Positions 20,456 through 64,000 of a DNA stretch of 64,000 nt are shown here, in pieces. Every line of letters starts with the position of its first letter. The first letter of the stretch is position 1. Under the pieces are notes generated by a model. It was not told where the DNA came from, did no database searches, and saw only the letters and a program-made list of their open reading frames with translations. Source of the stretch: an uncultured bacterium (GTDB lineage: Bacteria > UBP14 > UBA6098); NCBI GenBank assembly GCA_964606695.1, contig CAZSHG010000007.1, positions 2,456 to 66,455 on the forward strand. Direction: 5' to 3'. The position numbers and the translations under genes are program-made.

Positions 20456-20456
20456 G

Positions 20457-36167: not shown

Positions 36168-36179
36168 TTCCTCCTAATT

Positions 36180-36878: not shown

Positions 36879-36888
36879 ATCGCACCCC

Positions 36889-37314
36889 CTAATCCATAAC
36901 CTCGATACCCATGCTTCGAGCGGTTCCCTCGACAATACGCATGGCGCCTTCGATATCTATTGCGTTGAGGTCGGGCATCTTGGTTTCGGCTATTTCTTTG
37001 ACCTGTTTTCGGGTTACCGTTCCGACTTTCTCGGTGTTTGGAACGCCCGAACCCTTTTCGATGCCCGCGGCCTTGCGCAACAGATCGCTCGCCGGCGGAG
37101 TTTTGGTTATGAAATCGAACTTATTATTCTGGTAAACCGTGATGACTACCGGAATAATGACGTCCCCCATCTTCTGGGTTTGGGCGTTGAAGGCCTTGCA
37201 GAAATCCATGATATTGATTCCGGCCTGGCCTAACGCCGGCCCCACAGGTGGGGCGGGTGTCGCTTTGCCAGCAGGTATCTGTAGCTTAACGATTGTTTTT
37301 ACTTCTTTTGCCAT
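36889..37314 (-). CDS. rplK: 50S ribosomal protein L11
   Basis: [43 protein letters not shown]. Confidence 0.95.
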
Positions 37315-37406
37315 ATTTTTCCTTTCATCCTCCCACGGTTAAGGCATTCCGTGGTAAATGGACTCCCAAAGCGGGAATGAATTAACTCGAAAGAGTGCGT
37401 CAAAAT

Positions 37407-37946
37407 TTATTCCGTATCCTCTTTTATCTGGAGAAAATCGACCTCGACCGGGGTCAATCTTCCGAAAATACTCACCATGACCTTTATTTTACCCCTTTCA
37501 GGGTTGATTTCCGATATGGTTCCGGAGAAATCGCGGAAGGGTCCGTCAACAACCTTCACGGCGTCGCCGACAACAAACGGAATCTCGATCTTATGTTCGG
37601 CGGCTTCGATTCCACCGGTGCGAGCTTTTATCCTGTCGATTTCCTCTTCGCTGACCGGGACAGGTTTACCGCCGCTCGATGTCAGAAAACCGGTAACTCC
37701 GGGAGTTCCGTTTACGAGTGCGATTGTCTCTTTGCTCGCTTCCATATTGACCAGAATATAGCTGGGAAAGAACTTCCGCTGGACGGTTCGTCTTTTGCCC
37801 TGACGCATTTCGATAATATCCTCGGTAGGAATAAGGATTTCAAAAATACGATCCTCATATCCCTTTTCGCGAATAGCGGCATCGAGGTAGCGTTTGGCCT
37901 TTTGCTCGTGACCGGAAAGCGTATGAACTACATACCAATTCGCCAT
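37407..37946 (-). CDS. nusG: Transcription termination/antitermination factor NusG
   Basis: NGN domain (WYVVHTLSGHE) and a KOW motif (FVVGDAVKVVDGPFRDFSGTI). Confidence 0.9.
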   Translation of the reverse strand: MANWYVVHTLSGHEQKAKRYLDAAIREKGYEDRIFEILIPTEDIIEMRQGKRRTVQRKFFPSYILVNMEASKETIALVNGTPGVTGFLTSSGGKPVPVSEEEIDRIKARTGGIEAAEHKIEIPFVVGDAVKVVDGPFRDFSGTISEINPERGKIKVMVSIFGRLTPVEVDFLQIKEDTE

Positions 37947-38132
37947 TTAACCTAACACCAACCGCACGAGTTTCAAGAATAATTGGTCGATAACGCCGAC
38001 GAACACAAGAAGCAAAACGCTACTGATAACGACGGCAATAGTCAGACCGGTCAACTCTTCACGAGTCGGCCACCTGACCTTTTTCGCCTCCTGATAGGAC
38101 TCTTTAATAAAAGTTTTGATTTTCTCGAACAT
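37947..38132 (-). CDS. secE: Preprotein translocase subunit SecE
   Basis: MFEKIKTFIKESYQEAKKVRWPTREEL followed by a single TM; the longer ORF-track start would run through tRNA-Trp. Confidence 0.75.
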   Translation of the reverse strand: MFEKIKTFIKESYQEAKKVRWPTREELTGLTIAVVISSVLLLVFVGVIDQLFLKLVRLVLG

Positions 38133-38195
38133 ATTGCCAGTCCGTAATTTAGTTTTGCCGGAAGGCGGAGCGTTTAACTCCGCCATCCATAATCT

Positions 38196-38269
38196 CAGGC
38201 CCGGAGGGAATCGAACCCCCAACCCCCGGTTTTGGAGACCGGTGCTCTGCCAGATTGAGCTACAGGCCT
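38196..38269 (-). tRNA. tRNA-Trp (anticodon CCA)
   Basis: Anticodon stem CCGGT/ACCGG, loop CTCCAAA; conserved position between rpmG and secE. Confidence 0.85.
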
Positions 38270-38290
38270 ATATCGATGGCAGGCACAAAC

Positions 38291-38443
38291 CTACCTTGTT
38301 TCCTTATGCATTGTATGCTTGCCGCATTTGGAGCAGAATTTCTTATACTCGACACGTTCGGGATGTTTCCGCTTGTTCTTCGTGTAAGTATAATTCTTCG
38401 CCTTGCAAACGGTGCAAGCAAGTATAATGACGTCTCTCGGCAT
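38291..38443 (-). CDS. rpmG: 50S ribosomal protein L33 (50 aa, Cys4 zinc ribbon)
   Basis: Hand-translated [50 protein letters not shown]. It is not in the ORF track because it is shorter than 60 aa; it lies 2 nt downstream of tuf. Confidence 0.85.
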
Positions 38444-38445
38444 AA

Positions 38446-39654
38446 TTACTCGATGATCGTATGAACGACACCGGCGCCGATTGTCTTTCCGCCTTCACGG
38501 ATGGCGAACCGAAGTCCCTCTTCCATCGCGATAGGCGAAATCAACTTGCAGTCCATTGTGACGTTGTCGCCGGGCATAACCATCTCGCGGCCTTCAGGTA
38601 GTTGGATTTCACCGGTAACGTCGGTAGTCCTGAAATAGAACTGCGGTCTGTAACCGGTGAAGAACGGCTTATGACGCCCGCCTTCTTCCTTTTTGAGAAC
38701 GTAAACCTCGGCCTTAAATTTGGTATGAGGGGTAATCGATCCCGGTTTTGCCAGAACCATACCGCGCTCTACCTCATCCTTGCCGATACCGCGTAGAAGC
38801 ACGCCGACATTGTCTCCGGCTTCCGCGTAATCGAGAAGTTTCCTGAACATCTCGAGGTCTGTGGCGACTGTTTCGCGGGTTTCGCTGATTCCCACGATCT
38901 CGACTTTGTCGTTCTTGTTGATTTTACCGCGCTCGACACGACCGGTGGCAACCGTTCCACGTCCGGTAATCGAGAAGATGTCCTCGACCGGCATAAGGAA
39001 AGGTTTATCGACGTCTCTCTCCGGAGTCGGGATGTAATCATCGACCGCATCCATAAGTTCGAGGATCGGCTTGAATTCCGGCGATTCCACCATTTTTGTG
39101 TCGTCGAGACCCGCGTTCATGGCTTCCAGCGCGCTTCCCCGGATAATGGGGATATCGTCGCCGGGGAATTCATGCTTGGTCAGAAGTTCTCTGACTTCGA
39201 GTTCGACGAGGTCGAGCAGTTCCTCGTCATCGACCTGATCCGTCTTGTTCATAAACACCACCATAGCGGGCACGTTCACCTGTTTGGCGAGTAGCACGTG
39301 CTCGGTGGTTTGCGGCATCGGACCGTCGGCGGCGCTCACCACAAGGATAGCGCCGTCCATCTGCGCCGCGCCGGTAATCATATTCTTGATGTAGTCGGCG
39401 TGCCCGGGACAGTCGATGTGCGCATAATGGCGTTTCGCGGTCTCATACTCGACATGAGCGGTGTTAATAGTGATTCCGCGTTCCTTCTCCTCAGGGGCGT
39501 TGTCGATGTCGTCAAATTTCTCGACTTTCGAGAACCCCTGGCGGCTGAGCACCATCGTGATCGCCGCGGTGAGAGTCGTTTTACCGTGGTCGATGTGACC
39601 GATCGTTCCCACGTTCACGTGGGGCTTTTTGCGCTCAAAATGTTCTTTGGCCAT
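38446..39654 (-). CDS. tuf: Elongation factor Tu
   Basis: [16 protein letters not shown]1 motif, [12 protein letters not shown] motif. Confidence 0.95.
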
Positions 39655-39704
39655 TTCAATCCTCCTTAATTAGCCTATTTAGCGCATGTTACTTATTTTC
39701 AAAT

Positions 39705-40220
39705 TTAAACTCTATCGAGGAAATCGAGCAAAAAATCTGCCAGACGGCCTAACACGCCATGTCTGGTCTGTTTCGACTCGTCTTCCTCCGATTCGGTTTC
39801 TTCAAATATCTTTCCGAGACCTTTTTCTCGAAATATCTTCCGGGCTTCTTTGTCCCAGATTTCGTCAAAAGCCTGTAGAGCGACCAACTCGCTTTTATCC
39901 AACCATAGACCGCAACCGTTAGAACAGCGGTCAATAACCACGCCCGTGTCGTATCCGTAAACGGCACGGCTGAGCCTGGAACCGCAGGACGGGCAAACGA
40001 TTTCATCCTGTAGTTCCTCTTTAGGTATCGCCCTGATGCGCCATTCGCGAGCTTCTTCGAGCGCTTCCGATGGCATTCTTTCCTTTCGGGTTTCGATAAT
40101 CTCCCGAAGAATTTTGCCGTCAACCCAAAAACCGCCGCAATCGATGCACTGACGGATAGGGTAATCCTCGTATTTAGTCTCCGTCAATTTCCTGCCGCAA
40201 TGAGGGCATTTCATTATCAA
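39705..40220 (-). CDS. Protein with two zf-TFIIB-type zinc ribbons and an acidic C-terminus
   Basis: CPHCGRKL...CIDCGGFWVDGKILREI and CPSCGSRL...CSNGCGLWLDKSELVAL. Confidence 0.55.
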   Translation of the reverse strand: MIMKCPHCGRKLTETKYEDYPIRQCIDCGGFWVDGKILREIIETRKERMPSEALEEAREWRIRAIPKEELQDEIVCPSCGSRLSRAVYGYDTGVVIDRCSNGCGLWLDKSELVALQAFDEIWDKEARKIFREKGLGKIFEETESEEDESKQTRHGVLGRLADFLLDFLDRV

Positions 40221-40232
40221 ACTCCGTCCAAA

Positions 40233-40306
<74 letters not shown>

Positions 40307-40333
40307 GAACCAAAGATTATCAAACAACTCAAA

Positions 40334-40407
40334 AGCGGGAAACGGGATTCGAACCCGCGACATTCAGCTTGGAAGGCTGACGCTCTAGCCAGCTGAGCTA
40401 TTCCCGC
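40334..40407 (-). tRNA. tRNA-Gly (anticodon TCC)
   Basis: Acceptor GCGGGAA/TTCCCGC, anticodon stem TCAGC/GCTGA, loop CTTCCAA. Confidence 0.85.
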
Positions 40408-40420
40408 AATTCAAAATATG

Positions 40421-40502
40421 TGGTGGGGGGAGGATTCGAACCTCCGAAGGCGTTGCCGACAGATTTACAGTCTGTTCCCTTTGGCCGCTCGGGAACCCCA
40501 CC
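40421..40502 (-). tRNA. tRNA-Tyr (anticodon GTA), long variable arm, CCA encoded
   Basis: Acceptor GGTGGGG/CCCCACC, loop CTGTAAA. Confidence 0.85.
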
Positions 40503-40518
40503 AAAACCGGTATCAAAC

Positions 40519-40590
40519 AGCCGACGGAGGGAATCGAACCCTCAACCTGCGGTTTACAAAACCGCTGCTCTACCCTTGAGCTACATCGGC
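40519..40590 (-). tRNA. tRNA-Thr (anticodon TGT)
   Basis: Acceptor GCCGATG/CGTCGGC, anticodon stem GCGGT/ACCGC, loop TTTGTAA. Confidence 0.85.
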
Positions 40591-40781
40591 AAAAGCCATA
40601 CCGATTGCCGGTATAGACTTGCCAAATAAATACATTAGAAGCCCGGATGTCAAGCTATTTTTCAGAAAAATATCACTTTTTTTGAAAAAAACTGATATAT
40701 TTGTTGACAATGCCAATTCCAAATTATATTTTCATTTAGTTTGCGTGTTGAAAATTACGTAAGAATCACGGAGGTTTAAAT

Positions 40782-45412: not shown

Positions 45413-46087
45413 ATGAAAAAAAGAATAACCTATTTAGTTTTATTTCTATTGAGCTTTTCGGTTGCTTTCGCGGTCGTAATAGACATCGTTCGAATTAGCG
45501 ATGTGCCGCTTATACTCGATATCAACGTCTATAATGACGGGGAACCGCCTGTCGAAATAACCGATTTCCATTTCAGCGTATCACCTCCTTGCGAGGTAGT
45601 GGCCGCGGAAGGCCCTCCAGGATGGACTCTACGATACGCATTGCCAAACAGTTTCGTCGAAATGGACGCTGGCGACGGCGCGGAGATTCCGCCGGGAGGT
45701 TCCGGGTCGTTCAGGGTTACGCTCGAAGGGCCCTGCGAAGACGCCAGTTATACCTTGTATTTAACCAGTCCCGAAGGTGTGATCCCTGGAAGCGAGCAGG
45801 AAGGTCCTCTGGGGCCTTTGGACGTTGGGACGGGAGTTAGACCGGAAAATATCGAGATCGAAATCTCGCCCAATCCATTCAACTCGTCGTGTGCTATTTC
45901 GGTTCCTGCGCGTGCCCGGATTGTTATTTACGACCTAACCGGACAGATTATAGATAAATTCGACTGCGGCTGTTCGAGAACTACATGGACATGGCGTCCA
46001 GATGAGAACCGGCCATCGGGAATATACCTTGTAAAGGCAACTCTGGGCGATTTAACTCTGACTAAACGCCTCGTTTATATGAAATAG
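45413..46087 (+). CDS. Secreted protein with a C-terminal FlgD-Ig-like / T9SS-type sorting domain
   Basis: Signal peptide. C-terminus SPNPFNSSCAISVP...IVIYDLTGQIIDKF...WTWRPDENRPSGIYLVKATLGDLTLTKRLVYMK. Confidence 0.6.
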   Translation: MKKRITYLVLFLLSFSVAFAVVIDIVRISDVPLILDINVYNDGEPPVEITDFHFSVSPPCEVVAAEGPPGWTLRYALPNSFVEMDAGDGAEIPPGGSGSFRVTLEGPCEDASYTLYLTSPEGVIPGSEQEGPLGPLDVGTGVRPENIEIEISPNPFNSSCAISVPARARIVIYDLTGQIIDKFDCGCSRTTWTWRPDENRPSGIYLVKATLGDLTLTKRLVYMK

Positions 46088-47197: not shown

Positions 47198-48466
47198 TTA
47201 AGGGAAAACACCTTTGCTTTTGTAAATCTTTTCCAAAATTGACAATGCCTTTATATAAGCGGCGTTTCTGTGCGTTGTCTCGTATTCTTCGGAGGCATCT
47301 TCGACGATTTTATATGCCGCCAGCATCTTCTTTTTTAGCATTGATTCCAGGTCGTCGGCCTCGAATTTCTCGCATCGTTTATTTTGAAGCCACTCGAAAT
47401 AGCTGAGGACAAGGGAACCTGAATTTGAAATGATATCTGGCATGATGTCGATGCCACGGTCTTCCAGGATGATGTCCGCCTCGGTATCGACCGGCGCGCT
47501 TGTGGCCTCCACGATGAGTTTCGTGTTGAGCGATTTTGCGTTCGACCCGCCAACCTGATGTTCCAACGCGGCGAAGATCATCATATCGACGCCTGTTTGC
47601 AGAAAATCGTCGTGCGAAATACGCTCCCCGCGAGGGTATCCGCTGATTCGCCCGAATTTCTTCTTGTAAAACAATAGTTCCGGGACGTCGATGCCGTCCT
47701 TGTCGCGGAAAGCTCCGCCGCTGTCCTCGATAGCGACTAACGAGCATCCGTTATCACTCAATATATTGGCTATATTCGATCCGATCTTGCCGAACCCCTG
47801 AAGTGAATATGTCATTCCCTTTAGTTCGAGGCCTTTGTTTTCGCACCATGCTTTGATTAAAAACATGTTGCTTTTCGCCTGCAATTCGTTGTAATTAGGC
47901 AGGCCTCCAAGCGTTTCGGGTTTGCCGGTAACTACGTGACGATAACAGTTAAGCTGGTCGGGAGAAACCTCGGTCAGGTAGGAATCGAGTATCCATGACA
48001 TGATTCGCGGATTGGAATTTATATCCGGTGTGATGACGTCGTATTCCGGGTCGATATTCGACCTGACGGCGTATGTGTATCTCCGAATGGTTCTTTCCAG
48101 ATCGACACCGGAGAATTCACCCGGCGATGCCGCAATACCGCCCATCGAACCGCCGAATGGTAAATCGAGCAAGGTGGCTTTCCACGTGTTCCATGACGCC
48201 AGGGCTTTCATCTGTGTGAGATTTACGCTGGGGTGAATCCGGAGGCCGCCTATAAACGGCCCCCGGATGTTATTATGTTGGACACGATAACCACTCAGAA
48301 TCTCCACGTCGCCACTTTCCATCTGCACCGGGAAATTAAATGTTATCTCATTCATAGACTTCCCAAGGATGCGAAGTATGTTAATATCCAGGCCGATATG
48401 GTCGGCGGCGCTGTGGAATTGCTCCACCATTGTTCCGTGGATATTCGATATGGTCAGCATGTCCAA
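47198..48466 (-). CDS. Glutamate dehydrogenase-family paralog lacking both conserved active-site lysines (GPFIGGLR and PFGGSMGG); likely non-catalytic or altered function
   Basis: Full-length Glu/Leu/Phe/Val-DH fold with an intact Rossmann GFGKIG motif and the C-terminal SYFEWLQN. The Lys89-equivalent is Ile and the Lys125-equivalent is Met. Confidence 0.8.
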   Translation of the reverse strand: MDMLTISNIHGTMVEQFHSAADHIGLDINILRILGKSMNEITFNFPVQMESGDVEILSGYRVQHNNIRGPFIGGLRIHPSVNLTQMKALASWNTWKATLLDLPFGGSMGGIAASPGEFSGVDLERTIRRYTYAVRSNIDPEYDVITPDINSNPRIMSWILDSYLTEVSPDQLNCYRHVVTGKPETLGGLPNYNELQAKSNMFLIKAWCENKGLELKGMTYSLQGFGKIGSNIANILSDNGCSLVAIEDSGGAFRDKDGIDVPELLFYKKKFGRISGYPRGERISHDDFLQTGVDMMIFAALEHQVGGSNAKSLNTKLIVEATSAPVDTEADIILEDRGIDIMPDIISNSGSLVLSYFEWLQNKRCEKFEADDLESMLKKKMLAAYKIVEDASEEYETTHRNAAYIKALSILEKIYKSKGVFP

Positions 48467-48508: not shown

Positions 48509-49801
48509 TCAGGGGAAAATTCCACGTTCGCGATATACCTTTTCGAGGCTCTTGATAGCTACAACGTAAGCCGCGGTTCGCCAATCGGTTTCGTGCTGAT
48601 CCGCGATTTCCTTCACGCGATGGTATCCGCCGATGATCTTCTTGTGGAGTTTCGTATCGACCTCGTTGAGATCCCAGTGCTCGCTTCGTTTGTTCTGTAG
48701 CCACTCGAAGTAACTCACGACGACTCCGCCTGCGTTGCAGAGGATATCGGGGATGACGTCGATTCCGCGTTCGAATAGAATCTGATCGCCCTCGGGATCG
48801 GTTGGGCCGTTAGCGCCTTCAGCAATCATTCTGACGTTCAGATCTTTCGCGGTTTCGCCGTTTATCTGGTTTTCCAGAGCCGCCGGAATGAAGATGTCGG
48901 CTTTGGTCTTCAAGAATGTGTCGTGGTCGATCTCTTTCGTTCCGGGGAAACCGGCAACTCCGCCTGTTTTTGCGACGTGGTATGTGAGAGCGTCGGCGTC
49001 GATGCCGTCCGCGCTGTAAATTGCGCCGGTAACGTCTTCGGCGGCGAGGAGTTTCGCGCCGTGTTCTTTCATCAGGCGAGCCGCCCACGAACCTACGTTA
49101 CCGAAACCCTGCACGAAGTATGTCGAACCGTTCAGGTCGAAGTTCTTATCCGAAGCCCACTGTTCGATTGTGAACATGACGCCCTGGCCGGTGGCCTTGT
49201 CGCGTCCCAGGCTTCCGCCACTCTCGATGGGCTTGCCGGTAACGACATGCGTGCACCTGTTGCGGTCCATCGGCGGCATCATCGACAGGTAGGTGTCGAG
49301 TATCCAGGCCATGATCTGCGGTGTGGTGTTGACGTCGGGAGCCGGAATGTCATATTCCGGGCCGATGTTATTGCCCAGCGCATAGGTGAACCTTCGCGTG
49401 ATTCGTTCCAGCTCTTTCTTACTATACTTGGCAGGATCCATCTGAATTCCGCCCTTGCCGCCGCCGAAGGGAATCCCCACGATTGCGGATTTCCAGGTCA
49501 TCCATGTGGCCAACGCGCGGACCTCGTTCAGATCGACGTCCGGGTGGAAACGCAGTCCGCCTTTGTAGGGGCCGAGGATATTATTGTGCTGAACTCGATA
49601 GCCGGTGAACATCTCGATTTTCCCGTTATCCATGCGGACGGGGAAATTGACGACGATCTCGTTAGTCGTGTTAGAGAGTATTCGCCGGATGTTCTCGTCC
49701 AGGCCGATTAAATCGGCGGCTTTGCTGAACTGCCGTTCGACGTTCTCGTAAACGTTCGATTTACGAACCTTTTTCTCGACAGCTTCTTTTACTGCTTTCA
49801 T
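48509..49801 (-). CDS. gdhA: Glutamate dehydrogenase (canonical)
   Basis: GPYKGGLRFHP, PFGGGKGG, GFGNVG and VVSYFEWLQN motifs; 430 aa. Confidence 0.85.
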   Translation of the reverse strand: MKAVKEAVEKKVRKSNVYENVERQFSKAADLIGLDENIRRILSNTTNEIVVNFPVRMDNGKIEMFTGYRVQHNNILGPYKGGLRFHPDVDLNEVRALATWMTWKSAIVGIPFGGGKGGIQMDPAKYSKKELERITRRFTYALGNNIGPEYDIPAPDVNTTPQIMAWILDTYLSMMPPMDRNRCTHVVTGKPIESGGSLGRDKATGQGVMFTIEQWASDKNFDLNGSTYFVQGFGNVGSWAARLMKEHGAKLLAAEDVTGAIYSADGIDADALTYHVAKTGGVAGFPGTKEIDHDTFLKTKADIFIPAALENQINGETAKDLNVRMIAEGANGPTDPEGDQILFERGIDVIPDILCNAGGVVVSYFEWLQNKRSEHWDLNEVDTKLHKKIIGGYHRVKEIADQHETDWRTAAYVVAIKSLEKVYRERGIFP

Positions 49802-53742: not shown

Positions 53743-56043
53743 ATGGGAACAAGAAAAAGGCATCTATTCATATTTTTATTGATTCTGACTGCGGTTTTCG
53801 CGGAGTTCGACACACTGCAGATAATCGGGCATATCCCCGGCGCGGCTTGCATGTCGGTCGAATATTCCAACGGTAGATTATACGCTGGCGCGGGAAGTTC
53901 GCTCTTCATTTACGATTGCCTCGCCCCAGCGGATATGGAACTGGCGGGTTACGTCAATTTCATTTCGCTGGTGACGAATATAGTCGTCCGGGACGATTCG
54001 ATGGTCTTCGTCGGCGCGAACCATGACGGCCTCTACGCGGTGGATGCCTCCGAACCGGATTTCCCTATAGTCGCGCAATATAAAATGATCGATCACAGCC
54101 ACTGGATAGGCGATCTGGAACTTTCCCCTCCCGACACGTTGTGGATGTCGGATTTTAACGGCCTTAAACAGATGCTATTCACCGGTGATACCTTCATCGT
54201 TTATGAGGAATATTTTGACGGGGATAAGATAGCTGGCGTGGGTTTCAAGGACACTTTGCTCGCGGTTTGCCGTCGCCACGATTGGGGCATTTTGGGCTAT
54301 GTCGATTTCTATAAAAGAATGGGGACCGAACTGACTTTCATCGCCAGTTTCGATTCGTCGCGTCTCTGGTATATTATGGACGCTGAATTCGCGGATAATC
54401 GCAATGATATTATATACGTCCTCGGCGGAAGCCCTAATCTCGGTGCTGATGGTGATTTTTACGCGCTCCATTACGACGGCGATTCTCTCTACGTTGCAGA
54501 CGGTCATAAGTTCAGCGGCATTCCCATGTTCGCGCAAACATATATAATGAACATGGACTCAAAGAACGATACGGTTTTCCTCGCCACTATGGCGGCATTA
54601 TACTGGTCGTCTCTTGATTCCACCTGGTCGGACTGCCCGGCCCTCGACGGTAATTTTCTTCCGGATTCCATGCCTATAATCGGGCATTTCGTGCCGGGGC
54701 TGTGGTTCTTTGACGTCGCCCTGCACGACGATTACCCCGCACTCGCCACTGGCTCGGAGTGGTTGGGCGTCTGGTGGACGAGCATAGCAGATTTCGACGA
54801 GAGACTCGACACAATCAGAACTTACCCCACCGGCGGATGGGGACAGCATTCGTATCTCTACGGCGGCGACACGTTATTCATCGCTATGGAGGGCTACGGT
54901 GTGGCTGTATTCGATGTCGGAGAGCCGTCGGTGCCGGAACGGGTGGGGAGAATACCGGGTTCCTTTGCCCACGATATGGCTTTCCTGGATTCGATAATAT
55001 GTGTTGCGAGAAGCGCTAAGTTCATATTCTTCAATCTTGCACCCTTCTGGCGTGGAGGCGAAATCGAAGTGTTAGACACCTTCGAGGTGCCGCTTGTTTT
55101 CGGGGAAACGCATATCTGTCATTCGCTGGCGTTGATGGAGACCAACGACGACACGTTCTTCGTCCTCGCCACCAGCGACGAGGGGATAAATCTCATAGAT
55201 CCGCGAGATATCCCGGGTGTCTATACCCACGCGCATTTCTTCGATAACACTGATCCTCTGGACGTTCGATGTTGTTACGATACATTATTTGTGATGATGA
55301 CGGATAGTTTCCACGTGGCCTGGTTCGACGGCGACACTATCGAATCTATTTACGATTGCGCGACGCCCGGCGAGGCACTCGGTTTTTATAAAGGCGGGGA
55401 TTTCGTCGCTATCGCATGTAAAGGCCCGGGTGTTTTCTGGTATAGATGGGAAGCGGATTCACTCGCTCTAATCGGCAATTGGAATCCATGGGGTTTATGC
55501 GCGGATGTGGAATATTTCGACAGCCTATTATATATCGCCTGCGCGGGCGAGGGGCTTTATATCCTCGATATCGAGGATTTCCCGGCGATAGATACTCTGG
55601 CATGGTTCCCCGGTTCGGGCGGCTGGGAATTCCTTCAATACGGCAGTCAGCATGTCTATTTCGGCCCGGACAGCACGATATTCCTATCCGATTATCACGC
55701 GGCGTGTTATATTCTTGAAAAATACGTGCGCGATCCTTACTACATCCGTGAAAATGGAGTGGATATACCCAAATCGCACACAATTTGGTCCTCCCCAAAT
55801 CCGTTTAATTCCAGCGTTCAGATCGAAGTGAAGAAAAAGGGAGTGAATTCCGCCCCCCGCGAAATTTCCATCTACGATGTTAAAGGCAGGTTGATCGATA
55901 AGATCGAACCCGATCCCATCGAGCGGGAAACAGTAGCTTCTTACACCTGGCGACCGGACGAAATTACCCCGTCGGGCCTTTACCTGGTTAAGGCCGAAGT
56001 ATCCGGCGAAATACTAACCGCCGGAATCGTATTCCTTAAATAG
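53743..56043 (+). CDS. Secreted LVIVD-repeat beta-propeller protein with a C-terminal FlgD-Ig-like / T9SS-type sorting domain
   Basis: Signal peptide; recurring DGLYAVDASEPDFP / GYGVAVFDVGEPSVP / EGINLIDPRDIPG / GEGLYILDIEDFP motifs; C-terminal SPNPFNSSVQIEV...ISIYDVKGRLID...YTWRPDEITPSGLYLVKAEV. Confidence 0.65.
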   Translation: MGTRKRHLFIFLLILTAVFAEFDTLQIIGHIPGAACMSVEYSNGRLYAGAGSSLFIYDCLAPADMELAGYVNFISLVTNIVVRDDSMVFVGANHDGLYAVDASEPDFPIVAQYKMIDHSHWIGDLELSPPDTLWMSDFNGLKQMLFTGDTFIVYEEYFDGDKIAGVGFKDTLLAVCRRHDWGILGYVDFYKRMGTELTFIASFDSSRLWYIMDAEFADNRNDIIYVLGGSPNLGADGDFYALHYDGDSLYVADGHKFSGIPMFAQTYIMNMDSKNDTVFLATMAALYWSSLDSTWSDCPALDGNFLPDSMPIIGHFVPGLWFFDVALHDDYPALATGSEWLGVWWTSIADFDERLDTIRTYPTGGWGQHSYLYGGDTLFIAMEGYGVAVFDVGEPSVPERVGRIPGSFAHDMAFLDSIICVARSAKFIFFNLAPFWRGGEIEVLDTFEVPLVFGETHICHSLALMETNDDTFFVLATSDEGINLIDPRDIPGVYTHAHFFDNTDPLDVRCCYDTLFVMMTDSFHVAWFDGDTIESIYDCATPGEALGFYKGGDFVAIACKGPGVFWYRWEADSLALIGNWNPWGLCADVEYFDSLLYIACAGEGLYILDIEDFPAIDTLAWFPGSGGWEFLQYGSQHVYFGPDSTIFLSDYHAACYILEKYVRDPYYIRENGVDIPKSHTIWSSPNPFNSSVQIEVKKKGVNSAPREISIYDVKGRLIDKIEPDPIERETVASYTWRPDEITPSGLYLVKAEVSGEILTAGIVFLK

Positions 56044-58416: not shown

Positions 58417-58489
58417 TCCGGAGTAGCTCAGTTGGTAGAGCAGGTGGCTGTTAACCACCGGGCCGTGGGTTCGAGTCCCTCCTCCGGAG
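58417..58489 (+). tRNA. tRNA-Asn (anticodon GTT)
   Basis: Acceptor TCCGGAG/CTCCGGA, anticodon stem GGTGG/CCACC, loop CTGTTAA; one T-stem mismatch. Confidence 0.8.
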
Positions 58490-58562: not shown

Positions 58563-59117
58563 TCACTTCGGCGAATTCTTCATCCTCGACGACACCGCAA
58601 AAGCGAAAATTCCTCTCTGAGAAATGACTACTCCTTTCTCGGATGCCGAAAAACTTTTCGCAGAAATACTCAACCATAGGGATTGCAGGCCGATTTCGCG
58701 ATTCACGCCCCCTGAGCCTTGCTTATAGTCCATCTGGGCAGAAGGGGGATTACAGTGTGCACCACCGCGCACTTCGACCCGTGGGGTCATGAAGTCAGGC
58801 TCAGTGAGCGGCTGGACTAAGCCACCATTCACGTCGAACACCTCGATTCGTTGGGGCGCGTCGAAGGAGATATTAATCGCGAAATTGAAGGGGTTTGGCC
58901 AGGCGGAAATCTCGAATGCCACCGGTTTCGCGGAGGGCGAATTCTCCTCGATGCCGGTATAGCCGAGCGAGTCGGTTTTAATGAGATAGATGTCGCCACG
59001 GTTTTTTGCTATAATCATTATCAAACACACCGGCGATAATGTGCCCGCCGTCGGACCTCTGGATTACGATATAACCTATGTCGTCCCCACTACCTTCGTA
59101 AGTTCTAACGACCAATC
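58563..59117 (-). pseudogene. Remnant of the 3' end of a secreted beta-propeller-repeat (SBBP-like) protein with a degraded T9SS/FlgD-Ig-type C-terminal domain
   Basis: The frame is open from a stop at about 59118. It reads ...TYEGSGDDIGYIVIQRSDGGHIIAGV...GDIYLIKTDSLGYTG...WPNPFNFAINISF...IEVFDVNGGLV, then loses recognisable domain sequence. There is no N-terminal part and no signal peptide. Confidence 0.35.
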
Positions 59118-59406
59118 AGATCGAGATACTCTTCAGGTCTTTTCGCGCAAGAACCCGTAAACTAAGGGGTTGATATACATATGAATCACAAAAAGGAATG
59201 TTAATCTTAACCGCTGACTCAAAAGGAATCCTAAATAAATACACATAATTAATGACAAACTCCGAAAGACTGTAAAGCGTTCATAATAGCGTTTTCCGCT
59301 GGTTTCGTATATTTATTTTCTTTTCTCTTTACAAATACGGCGCGCTAGATTATTTTGAAATGAAATAAAAAATTTTCAAGATATTCGAATATGAAAGGCA
59401 GGATTT

Positions 59407-61095
59407 ATGAGTGATATGAGAATACTGGTTGTCATCATCTCACTTTGCGCTCTGGCTTTTTGCGCCGAGACTCATCTTCTGGACGCAATGCAGACGGAAC
59501 TCGACCGTTCGACTGGCACGCTTGCGGATTCGGGAGCGGCTCCGCTTTATTTTCTCGGATACGAAATCATGGAGAAATCCGGGCAGAATATGTCCGCGCA
59601 GTTCGGGAGCATAAGCGATTACGGCGTCGATTATCCCCGGAGGATTCTGGACGTCGATCTGCGCGTGGGCGATTACAAACTCGACAATACCCATCCGCTT
59701 TCCGAACGCGATTGGTTCGCATACCTGCGCGATTTCGGGATGTCCTCGGCAATCCCAATCGACGGCTCGCCGGAGACGATTCGACATTACATCTGGCTGG
59801 TTACGGACAGGAAATTCCAGCACGCTCAGGAGGATTATATCAAGGTGCAGGGCGATGTTGCGGTGAAGGTCGAAAAGGAGGATACCTCGGCGGACTTCTC
59901 CCGCGCAGAACCGGAGGTTTATATCGGCGAAATCGAGCATATCGCGATCGACTCGGCGGAATGGGCGTCTAAGTTGAAGGCATATTCCGCGCGCTTTTCC
60001 GGCAACGATTTCTTGCTGGATTCGCGCGTGAGCCTGAACGTCGATAATCTCGATAAGTTCATCGTCAACAGCGAGGGCACGAGGCTTCAGTTCAGCGAGC
60101 CGAGGATTTATCTGTCCATTTATGCGTCGGTCAAAGCCGATGACGGTATGCAACTTTACCTTTACGATAGCTATATGGGCGACAGTTTCGACGATTTGCC
60201 CTCAGACGACGAGATTTACGCAGACATCGACCTGATGTTAGAAGATTTACGCACACTCAAGGACGCGCCCACGGTCGAGCCATACACCTGCCCGGCGATC
60301 TTGCGCAACCGCGCGGCTGGAGTCTTTTTCCATGAGATATTCGGGCATCGGTTGGAAGGACATCGCCAGGAGATAGAGGACGAGGGGCAGACTTTCGTAA
60401 AGAAAGTCGGGCAGTCCGTGCTTCCGGATTTCCTCTCGGTTTACGACGATCCTTCATTGTCCGAGTTCGAGGGCAATTTTCTCAACGGACATTATATGTT
60501 CGACGACGAGGGAGTCAGGGCACAACGGGCGGACGTCGTCAGGGATGGCATACTCAGCGATTTCCTGATGTCGCGCAATCCAATCGAGGGATTCGATAAA
60601 TCCAACGGCCACGGCAGGCGGTCTTCCGGCAACGACGTCGTCGCGCGGCAGGGGAATCTTATTGTCGAATCGAGCAAAACGGTGCCTTTCGACGAACTGC
60701 GCACGACGCTAATCGATAAATGCAAAGAACAGGGCAAGGACTGGGGGCTTATATTCGACGATATCTCCGGCGGATTCACCATGACGATGCGATATCTGCC
60801 CCAATCTTATAAGGTAATCCCGCTGAAGGTCTGGCGCGTTTATACCGACGGCAGGCCGGACGAACTCGTCCGGGGAGTCGATATAGTCGGCACGCCGCTG
60901 ACGAGTTTCAGCATGATAAGCGCGACCGGCGACGATCCTTACATATTCAACGGAATGTGCGGCGCGGAATCCGGCAGAGTGCCTGTTTCCGCGGTGTCTC
61001 CGTCCGTTCTCGTGGATCAGATCGAGGTCGAGAAAAAATACAAGGGCACGGACAAACCGCCGATTCTACCCGCCCCGAAATCCGTCGTGAAGTAA
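59407..61095 (+). CDS. Secreted TldD-like metallopeptidase (TldD/PmbA family, HExxxH present)
   Basis: Signal peptide; HEIFGH zinc motif; C-terminal G-x-C...NGMCG region typical of TldD/PmbA. Confidence 0.75.
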   Translation: MSDMRILVVIISLCALAFCAETHLLDAMQTELDRSTGTLADSGAAPLYFLGYEIMEKSGQNMSAQFGSISDYGVDYPRRILDVDLRVGDYKLDNTHPLSERDWFAYLRDFGMSSAIPIDGSPETIRHYIWLVTDRKFQHAQEDYIKVQGDVAVKVEKEDTSADFSRAEPEVYIGEIEHIAIDSAEWASKLKAYSARFSGNDFLLDSRVSLNVDNLDKFIVNSEGTRLQFSEPRIYLSIYASVKADDGMQLYLYDSYMGDSFDDLPSDDEIYADIDLMLEDLRTLKDAPTVEPYTCPAILRNRAAGVFFHEIFGHRLEGHRQEIEDEGQTFVKKVGQSVLPDFLSVYDDPSLSEFEGNFLNGHYMFDDEGVRAQRADVVRDGILSDFLMSRNPIEGFDKSNGHGRRSSGNDVVARQGNLIVESSKTVPFDELRTTLIDKCKEQGKDWGLIFDDISGGFTMTMRYLPQSYKVIPLKVWRVYTDGRPDELVRGVDIVGTPLTSFSMISATGDDPYIFNGMCGAESGRVPVSAVSPSVLVDQIEVEKKYKGTDKPPILPAPKSVVK

Positions 61096-61107
61096 GAGGA
61101 GGAAATA

Positions 61108-62859
61108 ATGAGACCGAGATATATATACATAATTCTGTTGGGTTTGATATTAGCGTTGACCACGTCGGCTATTAAACTCTATTCGGAGGCTGATAATGCG
61201 ATTTTCCCCGCGTTGAAGGACGAACTCGATCGGTCGATGAAGCAATTGAAAACCGATGAACTCCCCGGACCGTATTACATCCTGTATAAGGCTAATGAAT
61301 CGAGGTCGCTCGGTATTGGTGCGGGTTTCGGCGCGATAACGGCGTTCAATGAAGACCATCGAAGGAGGATAAATATCGATCTGCGCGTAGGGGATTATCA
61401 ATTCGATAACTCTAATTTCGCTAATAATATGCGTTCGTTCGAGTTCTCGATGGGCGGAGATATGTCCTTCGGCACATCTTCCGGATTGCCGCTGGAAAAC
61501 GATTACAATCTCATGCGCCGGGAAATCTGGCTGGCCACCGACCGGGCGTTTAAAGATGCCCACGAGGATTTTTCCAAGAAACGGGCGGCTATGGAAAACG
61601 CCGCAGAAGAACGCGAGAACGCCGACATGACGGAGGAAAAACCGGAAAAATTCTCCGAACCGGAACTGGAATGGAATCCGGACGCCGAATATTGGAAAGG
61701 AATCTGCCGGGACGTTTCCGCCGTATTCGCGGAATACCCTATGATCAAAGAATCCGAAGTTGCGTTATCGACGTCTATGAACAGGGAATATTTCGTCAAT
61801 TCCGAGGGATCCGAAATTATCCAGAATTTCCACAATGCCAGGCTCACGATTTCCGCGAGCGCTCAGAACGAGGAGGGCGAGAATTTCTCGGACAATCGAT
61901 ATTTCGTAGCGGACGACGTGGCAGGATTACCGAAACGCGAGGAACTCATCGCAACTGCGAAAGAGCTGGCTCAGGCCCTCGAAACGCAATCCGAAGCGGA
62001 TTCGATCTCATATTACATCGGGCCGGTGTTGTTCGAAGGACAGGCCGCGGCTGAGTTATGGACGAAAATGGTCGGCCAGAAACTACGCGTGATAAATGAG
62101 CCGGTTTTTGCGGATAAAATGTCGAGTATGGCCTTCGATATAATGAGAACTTCAGACCTGACCGGAAAACTCGATAAGCGCATCATGCCGGAATTCATCG
62201 ACGCCTGGGACGACCCGTCAGCTACCGAGTTCGACGGTGTTCCGCTACATGGAGGCTACAATTACGACGATGAAGGCGTCCGTGGTAGGAAGGTCGAATT
62301 GCTGGAGGACGGCACGGTTGTGGGAGTTATGACGAATCGCGTTCCGTTCAAGGAAATCGAAAATTCAAACGGCCATGCGGGCGGACTAAGCAATTTTTTC
62401 GTGGAAAGTGATAAAGGATTATCGCTTAAGAAACTAAGACAATCGTTTATCGAGGCGTGCGAAGAACAGGGGCTGAAACAGGGCTACATCGTCAGGCGGG
62501 TTAACAGACCGCTTTCCGAGAAGGATATGATGCAGTCGATGATGTCGCGAATGTCCCCAATGATGAGCGGGGGAAACAAGCAGGATGTCGAGATTACGCC
62601 GGTCGAGGTATATCGAGTTGATATCGATTCGGGCGACGAAACGCGGGTATCCGGCGTGATGTTGGAAGGCTTCGGTGTTCGCGCCCTGCGCGACATTATC
62701 GCGGTGGGGGAAGATCCCGAGGTTTTCGATGTGCCGGACTTTTCGGGGAATATTGTAACGGCGATAACTCCAGCGGTGCTGTTCGAGGAGATCGAGATCA
62801 AACCCTCGCCGACCGACCAGGACAAACCGCCAATGTTGCCCGATCCGTTGCACGAGTAG
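61108..62859 (+). CDS. Secreted PmbA/TldE-like partner (TldD/PmbA family, no HExxxH)
   Basis: Signal peptide. N-terminal block paralogous to the upstream gene (IDLRVGDYQFDN vs LDVDLRVGDYKLDN), shared DDEGV and NGHAGG/NGHGRR blocks, and no HExxxH motif. Confidence 0.7.
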   Translation: MRPRYIYIILLGLILALTTSAIKLYSEADNAIFPALKDELDRSMKQLKTDELPGPYYILYKANESRSLGIGAGFGAITAFNEDHRRRINIDLRVGDYQFDNSNFANNMRSFEFSMGGDMSFGTSSGLPLENDYNLMRREIWLATDRAFKDAHEDFSKKRAAMENAAEERENADMTEEKPEKFSEPELEWNPDAEYWKGICRDVSAVFAEYPMIKESEVALSTSMNREYFVNSEGSEIIQNFHNARLTISASAQNEEGENFSDNRYFVADDVAGLPKREELIATAKELAQALETQSEADSISYYIGPVLFEGQAAAELWTKMVGQKLRVINEPVFADKMSSMAFDIMRTSDLTGKLDKRIMPEFIDAWDDPSATEFDGVPLHGGYNYDDEGVRGRKVELLEDGTVVGVMTNRVPFKEIENSNGHAGGLSNFFVESDKGLSLKKLRQSFIEACEEQGLKQGYIVRRVNRPLSEKDMMQSMMSRMSPMMSGGNKQDVEITPVEVYRVDIDSGDETRVSGVMLEGFGVRALRDIIAVGEDPEVFDVPDFSGNIVTAITPAVLFEEIEIKPSPTDQDKPPMLPDPLHE

Positions 62860-63051: not shown

Positions 63052-63378
63052 TCAATCACACTCCTGCCCTTCGAAACCGCCGATCATCAACCACCCTTTT
63101 TCATCGCGGAGATATATTTGCCCCTTGCCCCATCCGATTTTAGCGCCTAAATAATAGAAACAGCGGTAGCAAATATCGCCCCACATGAAGGGGTTGTTCG
63201 ATATCTGAACGTCGAAAAGCAGATTCTCATTCTCGAACGGAATCCCGCATTTGTTGCATTTCTCCGAGGGATTGACGTAATACCTTTTCTCCTTTTGAGC
63301 GCGCTCCATATCGGCGTATTTATCGACCAACCCCCGCTCAGTCTTGTCCATTTTGCCTTTTGTTTTATCCTCTTTCAT
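63052..63378 (-). CDS. Hypothetical small protein with a CxxC...CxxC motif
   Basis: 108 aa, CNKCG...CYRC; no recognisable family. Confidence 0.35.
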   Translation of the reverse strand: MKEDKTKGKMDKTERGLVDKYADMERAQKEKRYYVNPSEKCNKCGIPFENENLLFDVQISNNPFMWGDICYRCFYYLGAKIGWGKGQIYLRDEKGWLMIGGFEGQECD

Positions 63379-63574: not shown

Positions 63575-64000
63575 TTATCTTGCCAGCGTTACCGTTCCTT
63601 CGCATTTGATTCTGCCTTCGGCGCGGATGGTATAGATATAGATTCCCGGGCGCATAGGGGCGCTGGAATCGTCTCTGCCGTCCCATTTGGCGGCCTCTTT
63701 GGCACCACTGCCCGTGGGCACCTCGATATTTCGCACTCGAAGATTGCCGAGGGTGAATATCTTGATTGTGCCGGGCACCTCGCCGAGGCCGGGGAACGTA
63801 AACTCCGCCTCGTCGTTAATCCCGTCGCCGTTCGGGGTGAAGGGGTTGGGGGTGGCGGAACAGAGGTGATAATCCGGCATATCGCATGGGATGGTGATTG
63901 ACCCCGCGTAGAAAGTAATCGCTTTGTGGCCGAGTTCGATGTTGTATTCGCCATTTGGCAAAGACGGGCAGACGAACTTTAGCCATGTGTTATAGAGCGA
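63575..64000 (-). CDS. 3' end of a large secreted protein with a C-terminal FlgD-Ig-like domain (5'-partial; continues beyond the window)
   Basis: NPFTPNGDGINDEAEFTF...IKIFTLGNLRVRNI...WDGRDDSSAPMRPGIYIYTIRAEG; the frame is open to the window edge. Confidence 0.55.
   Translation of the reverse strand, partial: SLYNTWLKFVCPSLPNGEYNIELGHKAITFYAGSITIPCDMPDYHLCSATPNPFTPNGDGINDEAEFTFPGLGEVPGTIKIFTLGNLRVRNIEVPTGSGAKEAAKWDGRDDSSAPMRPGIYIYTIRAEGRIKCEGTVTLAR

What the first reader, a model, noticed from the sequence alone, without database searches (positions are those of the whole stretch)
59407..62859. Tandem secreted TldD-like / PmbA-like metallopeptidase pair
Two adjacent paralogous TldD/PmbA-family genes, 12 nt apart, both carry N-terminal signal peptides. 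The first retains the HExxxH zinc site (HEIFGH); the second lacks it. This mirrors the cytoplasmic TldD/TldE heterodimer that processes microcin B17 / CcdA, but here the pair appears to be exported. An exported TldD/E-type chamber protease could process extracellular or periplasmic peptides; both genes carry signal peptides, and several other secreted proteins are encoded in this window.
Basis: partly seen in the sequence, partly recalled or inferred. Interest (0 to 1): 0.6.

Follow-up and report, generated by a model that had tools for sequence, protein, structure and literature searches.

The report
Exported two-subunit TldD/E-like peptidase
Two adjacent genes encode an active and an inactive copy of a TldD-type zinc peptidase, both with export signals; together they probably form a hollow peptide-shredding enzyme outside the cytoplasm, and they belong to a large uncharacterised family found in many uncultured bacteria.

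Summary
Genes at 59407-61095 (562 aa) and 61108-62859 (583 aa) are 12 nt apart, in the same frame, with a GAGGAGG ribosome site before the second. Both are TldD/PmbA-family proteins by Pfam and by predicted fold.

- **Gene 1** keeps the catalytic HEIFGH motif and the Cys ligand (MCGAESG). Both are invariant in 111 homologs.
- **Gene 2** has lost both.
- **Export:** both start with Sec-type signal peptides. The feature is conserved in about 95% of full-length homologs while its sequence is not. E. coli TldD and TldE lack it.
- **Pairing:** the tandem pair recurs in 6 of 7 comparison loci from several phyla, with unrelated neighbours and no RiPP genes. In 38 cluster representatives the two are fused in one chain, always active half first, with a single N-terminal signal peptide.
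- **Origin:** gene 2 is far closer to gene 1 than to E. coli TldE. A distance tree never groups it with TldE, so the dead partner probably arose independently.

Most likely this is a Sec-exported periplasmic TldD/E-type chamber peptidase that digests unfolded peptides. It is one member of a large, already annotated but unstudied subfamily of about 1000 clusters at 50% identity. Bacteroidota export canonical TldD through Tat. Interest is moderate.

The parts
59328..59356 (+). Weak sigma-70-like promoter match (TTTACA-17-TATTTT) about 50 nt upstream of gene 1. Tentative only.
   Evidence: 9 of 12 matches. The region's promoter-like count (7) is not above the shuffle expectation (5.1 +/- 2.2).
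59407..61095 (+). Gene 1: catalytic subunit (family A), a long-form TldD-like metallopeptidase precursor of 562 aa.
   Evidence: ORF. Pfam PF19289 at 107.5 bits and PF19290 at 23.5 bits. Aligns to E. coli TldD 5nj5_A, E 7.6e-11. AF2 pLDDT 87.4, pTM 0.86. Best PDB fold match is E. coli TldD 5njf_A, E 5e-29, TM 0.75.
59407..59466 (+). Gene 1 Sec-type signal peptide (MSDMRILVVIISLCALAFCA). Cleavage is predicted after A17 or C19. There is no twin-arginine motif and no canonical lipobox.
   Evidence: The model has a lone N-terminal helix at 3-17 with low confidence at 16-18.
60331..60363 (+). Catalytic metal-binding motif HEIFGHRLEGH (aa 309-319).
   Evidence: H309, E310, G313, H314, R315 and E317 are invariant in 111 homologs. 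The motif aligns with H262/E263/H267 of E. coli TldD (PMC5810440).
60955..60975 (+). MCGAESG (aa 517-523). Cys518 is the predicted third metal ligand, in the 'clamp' strand.
   Evidence: C518, A520, E521, S522 and G523 are invariant. The motif aligns with Cys454 of E. coli TldD (PMC5810440).
61051..61077 (+). Conserved Pro-rich C-terminal tail DKPPILPAP, absent from E. coli TldD and TldE. Role unknown.
   Evidence: P552, L554 and P557 are invariant. Low model confidence in this region. Alignment.
61096..61102 (+). Shine-Dalgarno GAGGAGG for gene 2, inside the 12-nt spacer. This indicates an operon with coupled translation.
61108..62859 (+). Gene 2: catalytically inactive partner subunit (family B), 583 aa. 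It is a paralog of gene 1.
   Evidence: ORF. Pfam PF19289 at 53.4 bits. 28% identical to gene 1 over the full length, E 9e-72. AF2 pLDDT 91.1, pTM 0.89. Best PDB matches are TldE 5njb_B (E 2e-25) and PmbA 3qtd.
61108..61170 (+). Gene 2 Sec-type signal peptide (MRPRYIYIILLGLILALTTSA). Cleavage is predicted after TSA.
   Evidence: Natural fusions replace this segment with a non-hydrophobic linker.
62053..62085 (+). Degenerate active-site helix ELWTKMVGQKL. His, Glu and His are replaced by Trp, Thr and Gln.
   Evidence: There is no HExxxH in family B.
62821..62847 (+). Conserved Pro-rich C-terminal tail DKPPMLPDP, the counterpart of the gene 1 tail.
   Evidence: P580 is invariant and P575 nearly so. 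Alignment.

Best explanation
The two genes form an operon encoding a Sec-exported, two-subunit metallopeptidase of the TldD/E type (MEROPS M103).

Proposed steps:
1. Each precursor crosses the inner membrane unfolded through Sec, and signal peptidase I removes its signal peptide.
2. In the periplasm of this diderm, T9SS-bearing bacterium, the active subunit (gene 1: HExxGH plus Cys metal site) and its dead paralog (gene 2) fold and pair 1:1 into a closed shell.
3. [quoted passage not shown] They are bound as a beta-strand regardless of sequence and cut into short pieces.
4. The most likely role is digestion of oligopeptides for amino-acid nutrition, and/or removal of unfolded envelope polypeptides.

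Shown here: family, fold, intact versus lost catalytic residues, conserved signal-peptide features, conserved tandem arrangement, natural A-B fusions.

Inferred: cleavage of the signal peptides, periplasmic (rather than surface or extracellular) location, heterodimer formation, the threading mechanism, and the physiological substrate.
For: Family and fold.

Catalytic residues are invariant in family A and absent in family B.

Export signals are conserved as a feature but not as a sequence: 97 of 98 and 87 of 91 homologs. E. coli TldD and TldE lack them.

Operon structure.

The same A-then-B tandem, with both signal peptides, occurs in L001 (Aminicenantes), L003/L004 (Phycisphaerae), L010, L011 (Zixibacteria), L012 (WOR-3) and L014.

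Fusions: 38 representatives of 1000-1194 aa are all ordered A-B. Each has one HExxGH, in the first half, and 34 of 38 begin with a signal-peptide-like hydrophobic N-terminus; the other four start inside the mature protein. In the six fusions read in full, the second half starts exactly at the mature N-terminus (DDV..AM.DEL.RS). One fusion was verified as a single ORF. This argues for a 1:1 complex and for a dispensable, cleaved second signal peptide.

No T9SS C-terminal domain, Tat motif or lipobox is present in either protein, so the periplasm is the default destination.

The mechanism is taken from the E. coli TldD/E crystal structures (PMC5810440; PMC10885120).

Lifestyle context: two Glu/Leu/Phe/Val dehydrogenases and a 2-oxoacid:ferredoxin oxidoreductase lie in the window. 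M103 is among the most abundant peptidase families in Acidobacteriota MAGs (bioRxiv 10.1101/2023.10.09.561551). A 'Peptidase U62' was detected in Myxococcus outer-membrane vesicles (PMC4158809).
Against: - No dedicated signal-peptide predictor was available. Cleavage versus an uncleaved signal anchor is not resolved; the hydrophobic run of gene 2 is 15-17 residues.
The heterodimer therefore rests on analogy, synteny and fusions.
- Even for E. coli TldD/E the physiological role is unsettled.
- Some TldD/PmbA-family enzymes are said to be N-deacetylases rather than peptidases. This rests only on the title of Vobruba et al. 2022 as cited in PMC10885120; the paper could not be read.
- One close relative (L009) has no partner downstream, and its upstream side is cut by the contig end.
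- An archaeal-MAG member (L005) stands alone, so a homodimeric mode exists in the family.
- The nutritional role is suggested only by context.
Confidence: 0.6

Rival explanations
1. An extracytoplasmic maturation protease for a specific secreted RiPP, bacteriocin or toxin. It would remove a leader peptide after export, as TldD/E does for microcin B17 in the cytoplasm.
For: Canonical TldD/E matures microcin B17, klebsazolicin and a microcin C analogue, and is usually encoded away from the gene clusters (PMC10885120). Lack of linkage is therefore not decisive.
Against: No precursor, cyclodehydratase, PCAT transporter or immunity gene lies next to the pair in the window or in 7 comparison loci, and the neighbours are all different. 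The family is very widespread (1031 clusters at E<=1e-30) and highly conserved (50-60% identity across phyla). That pattern fits a general rather than a dedicated role.
Confidence: 0.1
2. An exported hydrolase acting on a non-peptide amide, for example an N-deacetylase or amidase working on envelope glycans or peptidoglycan. It would use the TldD fold for different chemistry.
For: A review title cited in PMC10885120 (Vobruba et al. [quoted passage not shown] The long form carries extra segments and a Pro-rich tail of unknown role.
Against: The full thermolysin-like HExxGHxxEG signature and the Cys-bearing clamp strand that binds the peptide backbone in E. coli TldD are strictly conserved. No glycan- or murein-related genes are linked. 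The review itself could not be read.
Confidence: 0.12
3. Membrane-tethered rather than soluble. The N-terminal hydrophobic segments would be uncleaved signal anchors, or lipid anchors in some relatives, holding the complex on the outer face of the inner membrane.
For: The hydrophobic runs are fairly long (median 16-17 uncharged residues). A loose lipobox pattern matches 21 of 120 family-A homologs. The L005 member has a clear lipobox, LFGANGC.
Against: Small residues at -3/-1 are present in 98 of 98 and 90 of 91 homologs. Fusions delete the second hydrophobic segment without replacing it. Gene 1 and gene 2 have no canonical lipobox.
Confidence: 0.12
4. An ordinary cytoplasmic housekeeping TldD/TldE pair. 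The apparent signal peptides would be artefacts of start-codon choice.
For: TldD/E homologs occur in about 60% of bacterial genomes (PMC5810440). No other copy lies in the window.
Against: The ATGs used are the first start codons after the upstream in-frame stops, at 4 codons each. Gene 2's start follows a strong SD. The hydrophobic N-termini recur in about 95% of homologs from independent assemblies and lie upstream of a conserved mature helix. NCBIfam equivalog scores are far below cutoff: 39 against 513 for TldD, 33 against 438 for PmbA.
Confidence: 0.04

Closest known systems
E. coli TldD/TldE (PmbA) heterodimeric metalloprotease, MEROPS M103 (PDB 5NJ5 and related entries)
   Same: Same fold for both subunits (Foldseek E 5e-29 and 2e-25, target-normalised TM about 0.73-0.75). 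One subunit carries HExxGH plus a Cys ligand and the other has lost them. The two work as a pair, judged from tandem genes and fusions. The threading 'pencil sharpener' mechanism is likely shared (PMC5810440).
   Different: - The E. coli proteins are cytoplasmic, have no signal peptides, and are encoded at unlinked loci.
- The window proteins are 80-130 residues longer. The extra residues sit at the same positions in both subunits, and both carry a conserved Pro-rich C-terminal tail.
- Sequence identity is only about 20-25%.
- The dead subunit is not a TldE ortholog.
- NCBIfam equivalog cutoffs are not met.
- The Pfam N-terminal domain PF01523 is not detected.
Tat-exported canonical TldD with a signal-less PmbA partner in Bacteroidota (e.g. 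Marinifilum locus L006; Ancylomarina, Sunxiuqinia, Carboxylicivirga). Known from annotation only.
   Same: An extracytoplasmic TldD/E-type pair encoded by adjacent genes, active subunit first. It is widespread in its phylum.
   Different: - It has canonical length and all three Pfam domains, including PF01523.
- The TldD carries a twin-arginine signal in 117 of 120 homologs.
- The partner has no signal peptide. This suggests export of a folded, metal-loaded dimer by Tat 'hitch-hiking', which is my inference.
- The window pair uses two separate Sec signals and must assemble after export.
Single-chain A-B fusions of the same long family (e.g. P0377, 1123 aa; P0005, Candidatus Eisenbacteria)
   Same: Same two modules in the same order, one active site, and an N-terminal signal-peptide-like start in 34 of 38 representatives.
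   Different: The partner's signal peptide is replaced by a non-hydrophobic linker, about 13-60 residues in the six fusions read in full. The window keeps two genes and two signal peptides.
Archaeal TldD/TldE (Sulfolobus Sso0660; Thermococcus TldE, PDB 6J6A)
   Same: Same fold (6j6a_A, E about 2e-24 to 4e-24) and a zinc-dependent protease activity (PMC3497727 abstract).
   Different: Canonical length. A study of archaeal M103-rich Calditenuis found no classical signal peptides on its peptidases (PMC12979851).

Membership tests
TldD/PmbA superfamily (Pfam PF19289/PF19290/PF01523; MEROPS M103, formerly U62) | C-terminal PmbA_TldD_3rd domain above Pfam's gathering score | tested here: met
   Gene 1 scores 107.5 bits and gene 2 scores 53.4 bits, against a cutoff of 22.
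TldD/PmbA superfamily (Pfam PF19289/PF19290/PF01523; MEROPS M103, formerly U62) | Central (PF19290) and N-terminal (PF01523) domains detectable by sequence | tested here: inconclusive
   PF19290: gene 1 scores 23.5 (above the 20.9 cutoff) and gene 2 scores 18.3 (below it). PF01523 is not detected in either, although the Bacteroidota TldDs have it. The structural alignments nonetheless span about 530-560 columns, including the N-terminal domain.
TldD/PmbA superfamily (Pfam PF19289/PF19290/PF01523; MEROPS M103, formerly U62) | TldD/E fold | tested here: met
   The only significant PDB matches (16 chains with E<=1e-3) are TldD, TldE and PmbA structures. Target-normalised TM is 0.68-0.77. The models are confident, with pLDDT 87 and 91.
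TldD (catalytic subunit) | HExxxH metal-binding and catalytic motif plus a Cys third ligand | tested here: met
   Gene 1 has H309, E310, H314 and C518, aligned to H262/E263/H267/C454 and invariant in 111 homologs. Gene 2 has none of them.
TldD (catalytic subunit) | Equivalog of E. coli or archaeal TldD (NCBIfam NF008006 / NF040952 cutoffs) | tested here: not met
   Gene 1 scores 39.1 against 513, and 69.3 against 635. It belongs to a separate clade in the tree.
TldE/PmbA (inactive partner subunit) | Orthology to TldE/PmbA (NCBIfam NF008268 cutoff; grouping with TldE/PmbA in a tree) | tested here: not met
   Gene 2 scores 32.7 against 438. The grouping 'family B + canonical TldE/PmbA' has 0 of 200 bootstraps, while the split of the four canonical proteins from A+B has 200 of 200. 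Gene 2 scores 228 bits to gene 1 and 47 bits to TldE. It works like TldE but is not a member of that orthologous group.
TldD/E-type heterodimer | Stable 1:1 complex of active and inactive subunits enclosing the active site | not testable with these tools
   Indirect support only: conserved tandem genes and 38 natural A-B fusions. No complex prediction was possible (structure jobs exhausted).
Sec (SPase I) signal peptide | Basic n-region, hydrophobic h-region of about 10-15 residues, small residues at -3/-1 | tested here: met
   A heuristic found these features in both proteins, and in 97 of 98 and 87 of 91 homologs. E. coli controls were negative. No SignalP run was possible.
Tat signal peptide | Twin-arginine motif (S/T-R-R-x-F-L-K) | tested here: not met
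   Gene 1 starts MSDMR and gene 2 starts MRPRY. Only 2 of 120 and 7 of 118 homologs match a loose RR pattern, against 117 of 120 in Bacteroidota TldD.
Bacterial lipoprotein | Lipobox [LVI][ASTVI][GAS]C at the end of the h-region | tested here: not met
   Gene 1 has ISLC and LAFC, with Leu or Phe at -1, which is not canonical. Gene 2 has no Cys in its signal region.
T9SS cargo | C-terminal sorting domain (Por_Secre_tail / CHU_C) | tested here: not met
   Neither protein has such a Pfam hit, and both end in a short Pro-rich tail. Neighbouring genes in the window do carry these domains.
RiPP-cluster protease | Conserved linkage to precursor or modification genes | tested here: not met
   Neighbours are unrelated across the window and 7 loci.

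The most novel reading that the evidence does not exclude
The long Sec-exported family is an independent re-invention of the TldD/E design. An exported TldD-like ancestor would have duplicated on its own, and one copy lost its active site in parallel with TldE. The resulting pair, or in one clade a single fused chain, would serve as a general periplasmic 'pencil sharpener' feeding peptide-fermenting bacteria across many uncultured phyla. This would give an extracytoplasmic and genetically separable handle on what TldD/E-type chambers do in cells.
Probability: 0.4. Interest if true: 0.55.

Novelty: new variant of a known kind. Interest (0 to 1): 0.4.

Why it matters
TldD/E is one of the most widespread prokaryotic proteases, yet its normal cellular job is still unclear (PMC5810440). 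All characterised examples act in the cytoplasm.

A large, strongly conserved family exported by Sec extends this chamber protease to the cell envelope. It has its own dead partner subunit and natural single-chain fusions. It points to roles in peptide nutrition or envelope clean-up in lineages that dominate sediments, soils and digesters, namely Aminicenantes and other Acidobacteriota, Phycisphaerae, Zixibacteria and WOR-3.

It would also be a clean case of an active/inactive enzyme pair evolving twice. The fusions offer a convenient single-polypeptide form for biochemistry.

This window's copy is an ordinary member of that family, not a singular find.

Tried and rejected
- **Own protein look-up.** Looking up the window's own protein on contigs found nothing on record.
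- **Genome-contig scan.** A genus-level census, and a check for co-existing cytoplasmic TldD/E in the same genomes, were therefore impossible.
- **AFDB50 fold library.** It was not available.
- **Tree attempts.** The first timed out. The second gave meaningless values, because Kimura-corrected distances were undefined at this divergence. A Scoredist-like distance then worked.
- **Cluster-member look-up.** It gave no organism names, so the window's phylum remains unassigned.
- **Literature.** Searches for exported, secreted, periplasmic or Tat-dependent TldD/PmbA/U62 found no dedicated study. The Vobruba 2022 family review is not held.
- **Readings considered and rejected.** Tat export, lipoprotein anchoring, T9SS cargo, a RiPP-cluster protease, and start-codon artefacts; see the membership tests and rival explanations.
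- **Promoter and terminator scan.** It gave nothing above the shuffle expectation.


Full report
**1. What is in the sequence**

Two ORFs lie on the + strand at 59407-61095 (562 aa) and 61108-62859 (583 aa). They are 12 nt apart and in the same reading frame. A GAGGAGG Shine-Dalgarno sits at 61096-61102, just before the second ATG. In each case the chosen ATG is the first start codon after the upstream stop. The two genes therefore look like one operon. A promoter-like match at 59328-59356 is no better than chance.

**2. Family and fold**

Both proteins hit the Pfam PmbA/TldD C-terminal domain well above threshold, at 107.5 and 53.4 bits against a cutoff of 22. The central domain is at or near threshold, and the N-terminal Pfam domain is not detected.

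NCBIfam equivalog models for TldD and PmbA match only weakly: 39-69 bits against cutoffs of 513-635, and 33 against 438. These are family members, not equivalogs of the E. coli enzymes.

Gene 1 aligns to E. coli TldD (5nj5_A, E 7.6e-11). HEIFGH lies opposite HEAVGH, and MCGAESG lies opposite the GVCGKEG segment that carries the Cys454 ligand. Gene 2 has no sequence-level PDB match.

AlphaFold2 models built on 111-sequence alignments are confident: pLDDT 87.4 with pTM 0.86, and pLDDT 91.1 with pTM 0.89. Their only significant PDB neighbours are TldD, TldE and PmbA structures. Gene 1 is closest to TldD (5njf_A, E 5e-29, TM 0.75). Gene 2 is marginally closest to TldE/PmbA (5njb_B and 3qtd, E about 2e-25).

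**3. One active and one dead subunit**

In 111 homologs of gene 1 the residues H309, E310, G313, H314, R315, E317, C518, A520, E521, S522 and G523 are invariant. In 111 homologs of gene 2 none of these positions is conserved as a ligand. The window protein reads ELWTKMVGQKL and VPDFSGNI there. Five comparison loci show the same split.

**4. Export signals**

Both N-termini have a short basic start, a hydrophobic core of about 15 residues, and small residues at -3/-1. No dedicated predictor was available, so I used a heuristic together with comparison across homologs.

| Measure | Family A (gene 1) | Family B (gene 2) | Source |
|---|---|---|---|
| Full-length homologs with signal-peptide features | 97 of 98 | 87 of 91 | |
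| Loose twin-arginine pattern | 2 of 120 | 7 of 118 | |
| Maximum 10-residue KD hydropathy, window protein | 3.3 | 3.4 | |
| Same measure in the E. coli subunits | TldD 1.49 | TldE 1.40 | |

Column identity in the signal region is 15-40% and jumps above 90% in the helix that follows (LL.AM..EL.RS). That is the pattern expected of a real signal peptide. Neither window protein has a canonical lipobox or a T9SS C-terminal domain. Neighbouring genes do carry T9SS-type sorting domains, so the organism is a diderm and the default destination is the periplasm.

**5. The pair is a conserved unit**

The A-then-B tandem occurs in all of these loci:
- an Aminicenantes genome (L001),
- Phycisphaerae contigs (L003/L004),
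- L010,
- a Zixibacteria contig (L011),
- a WOR-3 contig (L012),
- L014.

Spacing runs from a 4-nt overlap to about 150 nt, and both proteins carry signal peptides wherever they were checked (L001, L003, L010, L011, L012). Only L009 lacks a downstream partner, and its upstream side is cut by the contig end. Flanking genes differ everywhere, and no RiPP, bacteriocin or transporter genes recur.

A search of 1.84 billion cluster representatives with gene 2 found 3549 relatives, of which 1031 had E<=1e-30. Of the 142 newly listed representatives, 38 are proteins of 1000-1194 aa. All 38 are ordered A-B. Each has a single HExxGH near residue 310, in the first half only. Thirty-four of the 38 begin with a hydrophobic signal-peptide-like N-terminus; the other four start inside the mature protein.

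In the six fusions read in full, the second module begins exactly at the mature N-terminus of family B, after a non-hydrophobic linker. One fusion was confirmed as a single ORF on its contig. These fusions argue for a physical 1:1 complex and for the second signal peptide being dispensable.

**6. Origin of the dead subunit**

| Pair compared | BLASTP score |
|---|---|
| Gene 1 vs gene 2 | 228 bits (28% identity, full length, E 9e-72) |
| Gene 1 vs E. coli TldD | 67 bits |
| Gene 1 vs E. coli TldE | 53 bits |
| Gene 2 vs E. coli TldD | 27 bits |
| Gene 2 vs E. coli TldE | 47 bits |
| E. coli TldD vs TldE | 70 bits |

Both window proteins share extra segments at the same positions, and a (D/E)(K/R)PP.LP.P C-terminal tail. 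Both E. coli subunits lack these.

I built a neighbour-joining tree from 35 sequences, 550 columns and Scoredist-like distances, with 200 bootstraps. It separates the four canonical proteins (E. coli and Marinifilum TldD and TldE/PmbA) from families A+B in 200 of 200 replicates. It never groups B with TldE/PmbA, or A with TldD (0 of 200 each).

With the caveats of a distance method and only four canonical sequences, the partner is best read as an independently derived pseudo-enzyme. It works like TldE but is not TldE.

**7. Likely mechanism**

By analogy with the E. coli crystal structures, the two subunits should enclose one metal site that is reached only through a narrow channel. Unfolded peptides enter N-terminus first, bind as a beta-strand independent of sequence, and are cut into short pieces (PMC5810440; PMC10885120).

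Here each subunit would cross the membrane unfolded via Sec and assemble in the periplasm. The substrate is inferred, not shown. I favour general oligopeptide digestion or clean-up of unfolded envelope polypeptides, for four reasons:
- The family is widespread, strongly conserved and unlinked to any cluster.
- The window encodes two amino-acid dehydrogenases and a 2-oxoacid:ferredoxin oxidoreductase.
- M103 is among the most abundant peptidase families in Acidobacteriota MAGs.
- A U62 peptidase has been found in Myxococcus outer-membrane vesicles. I could not check whether that protein belongs to this subfamily.

**8. Comparison with what is known**

The closest characterised system is cytoplasmic E. 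coli TldD/E.

At the annotation level, exported TldD is not new. In a Marinifilum locus a canonical-length TldD carries a twin-arginine signal, and the adjacent PmbA has no signal. Of 120 homologs of that TldD, 117 carry the Tat motif, and some are named 'twin-arginine translocation signal domain-containing protein'. That design suggests export of a folded dimer, which is my inference. The window's design, with two Sec signals or one in the fusions, is different.

I found no paper describing either exported form.

**9. Verdict**

Two corrections apply: 'PmbA-like' describes a role, not orthology, and a RiPP connection is unsupported.

The pair is a typical member of a large, annotated but unstudied subfamily. 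Relative to characterised systems it is a new variant of a known kind. Interest is moderate (0.4).

Still open: proof of export and cleavage, proof of the heterodimer, the substrate, the role of the conserved Pro-rich tails, and whether carriers also keep a cytoplasmic TldD/E.

Noticed in passing
L006 5419-8387 (uncultured Marinifilum sp., CANMCX010000001.1): A canonical-length TldD with a twin-arginine signal (SRREFIRTGS...) sits next to a PmbA-like gene that has no signal peptide. This looks like Tat 'hitch-hiker' export of a folded dimer. A signal-bearing 691-aa protein that looks like an S9 prolyl oligopeptidase (my reading of the sequence, not scanned) lies upstream, and a large protein that looks like a SusC-type TonB-dependent receptor lies downstream. 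117 of 120 homologs carry the Tat motif.
   Followed up: partly
P0377-P0496; L013 4001-6937 (P0005): A sizeable clade has the two subunits fused into one chain of 1000-1194 aa. The order is always active-then-inactive, with one HExxGH; 34 of 38 start with a signal-peptide-like N-terminus. A full-length fusion would be a convenient target for structure prediction or biochemistry.
   Followed up: partly
L005 559-2313 ('Nanoarchaeota archaeon' MAG JAHIMK010000006.1): A lone long-family member: 584 aa, 33% identical to gene 1, with HEVIGH and CGAESG intact. It has a lipobox (LFGANGC) and no adjacent partner. It suggests either a homodimeric, lipid-anchored form or a mis-binned bacterial contig.
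   Followed up: no
window 61051-61077 and 62821-62847: Both subunits end in a conserved Pro-rich tail, DKPP(I/M)LP.P. Several of its residues are invariant across the families, yet model confidence there is low. The tail is absent from E. coli TldD and TldE. Its role is unknown; it may pack onto the partner subunit.
   Followed up: partly
window 58563-59030 (-): A 155-aa ORF with a GTG start contains a T9SS-sorting-domain-like stretch (SAWPNPFNFAINISF...VFDVNGG) but has no Pfam hit. It lies between tRNA-Asn (58417-58489) and an AT-rich spacer upstream of gene 1. It is possibly the remnant of a truncated secreted-protein gene.
   Followed up: partly
window 47198-48466 (-) and 48509-49801 (-): Two tandem Glu/Leu/Phe/Val dehydrogenase paralogs. 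Together with a 2-oxoacid:ferredoxin oxidoreductase (19589-21623), they hint at an amino-acid-fermenting lifestyle.
   Followed up: partly
window 53743-56043 (+), 45413-46087 (+), 63575-63961 (-): Proteins with T9SS-type C-terminal sorting domains. Por_Secre_tail scores just below Pfam's cutoff, and CHU_C is at the cutoff. They point to an FCB-type diderm with type IX secretion. The phylum could not be assigned.
   Followed up: partly
window 63052-63378 (-): A 108-aa Cys-rich ORF (CNKCG...CYRCF, zinc-ribbon-like) with no Pfam match lies convergent to gene 2.
   Followed up: no
window 26543-40600 (-): Long ORFs of rpoC/rpoB and EF-Tu size (26543-34965, 38446-39654) lie beside a tRNA cluster (tRNA-Trp, Thr, Gly, Tyr, Thr). 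I read this as a core-chromosome transcription/translation block; the ORFs were not annotated. The window would then be core chromosome, not a mobile element.
   Followed up: no
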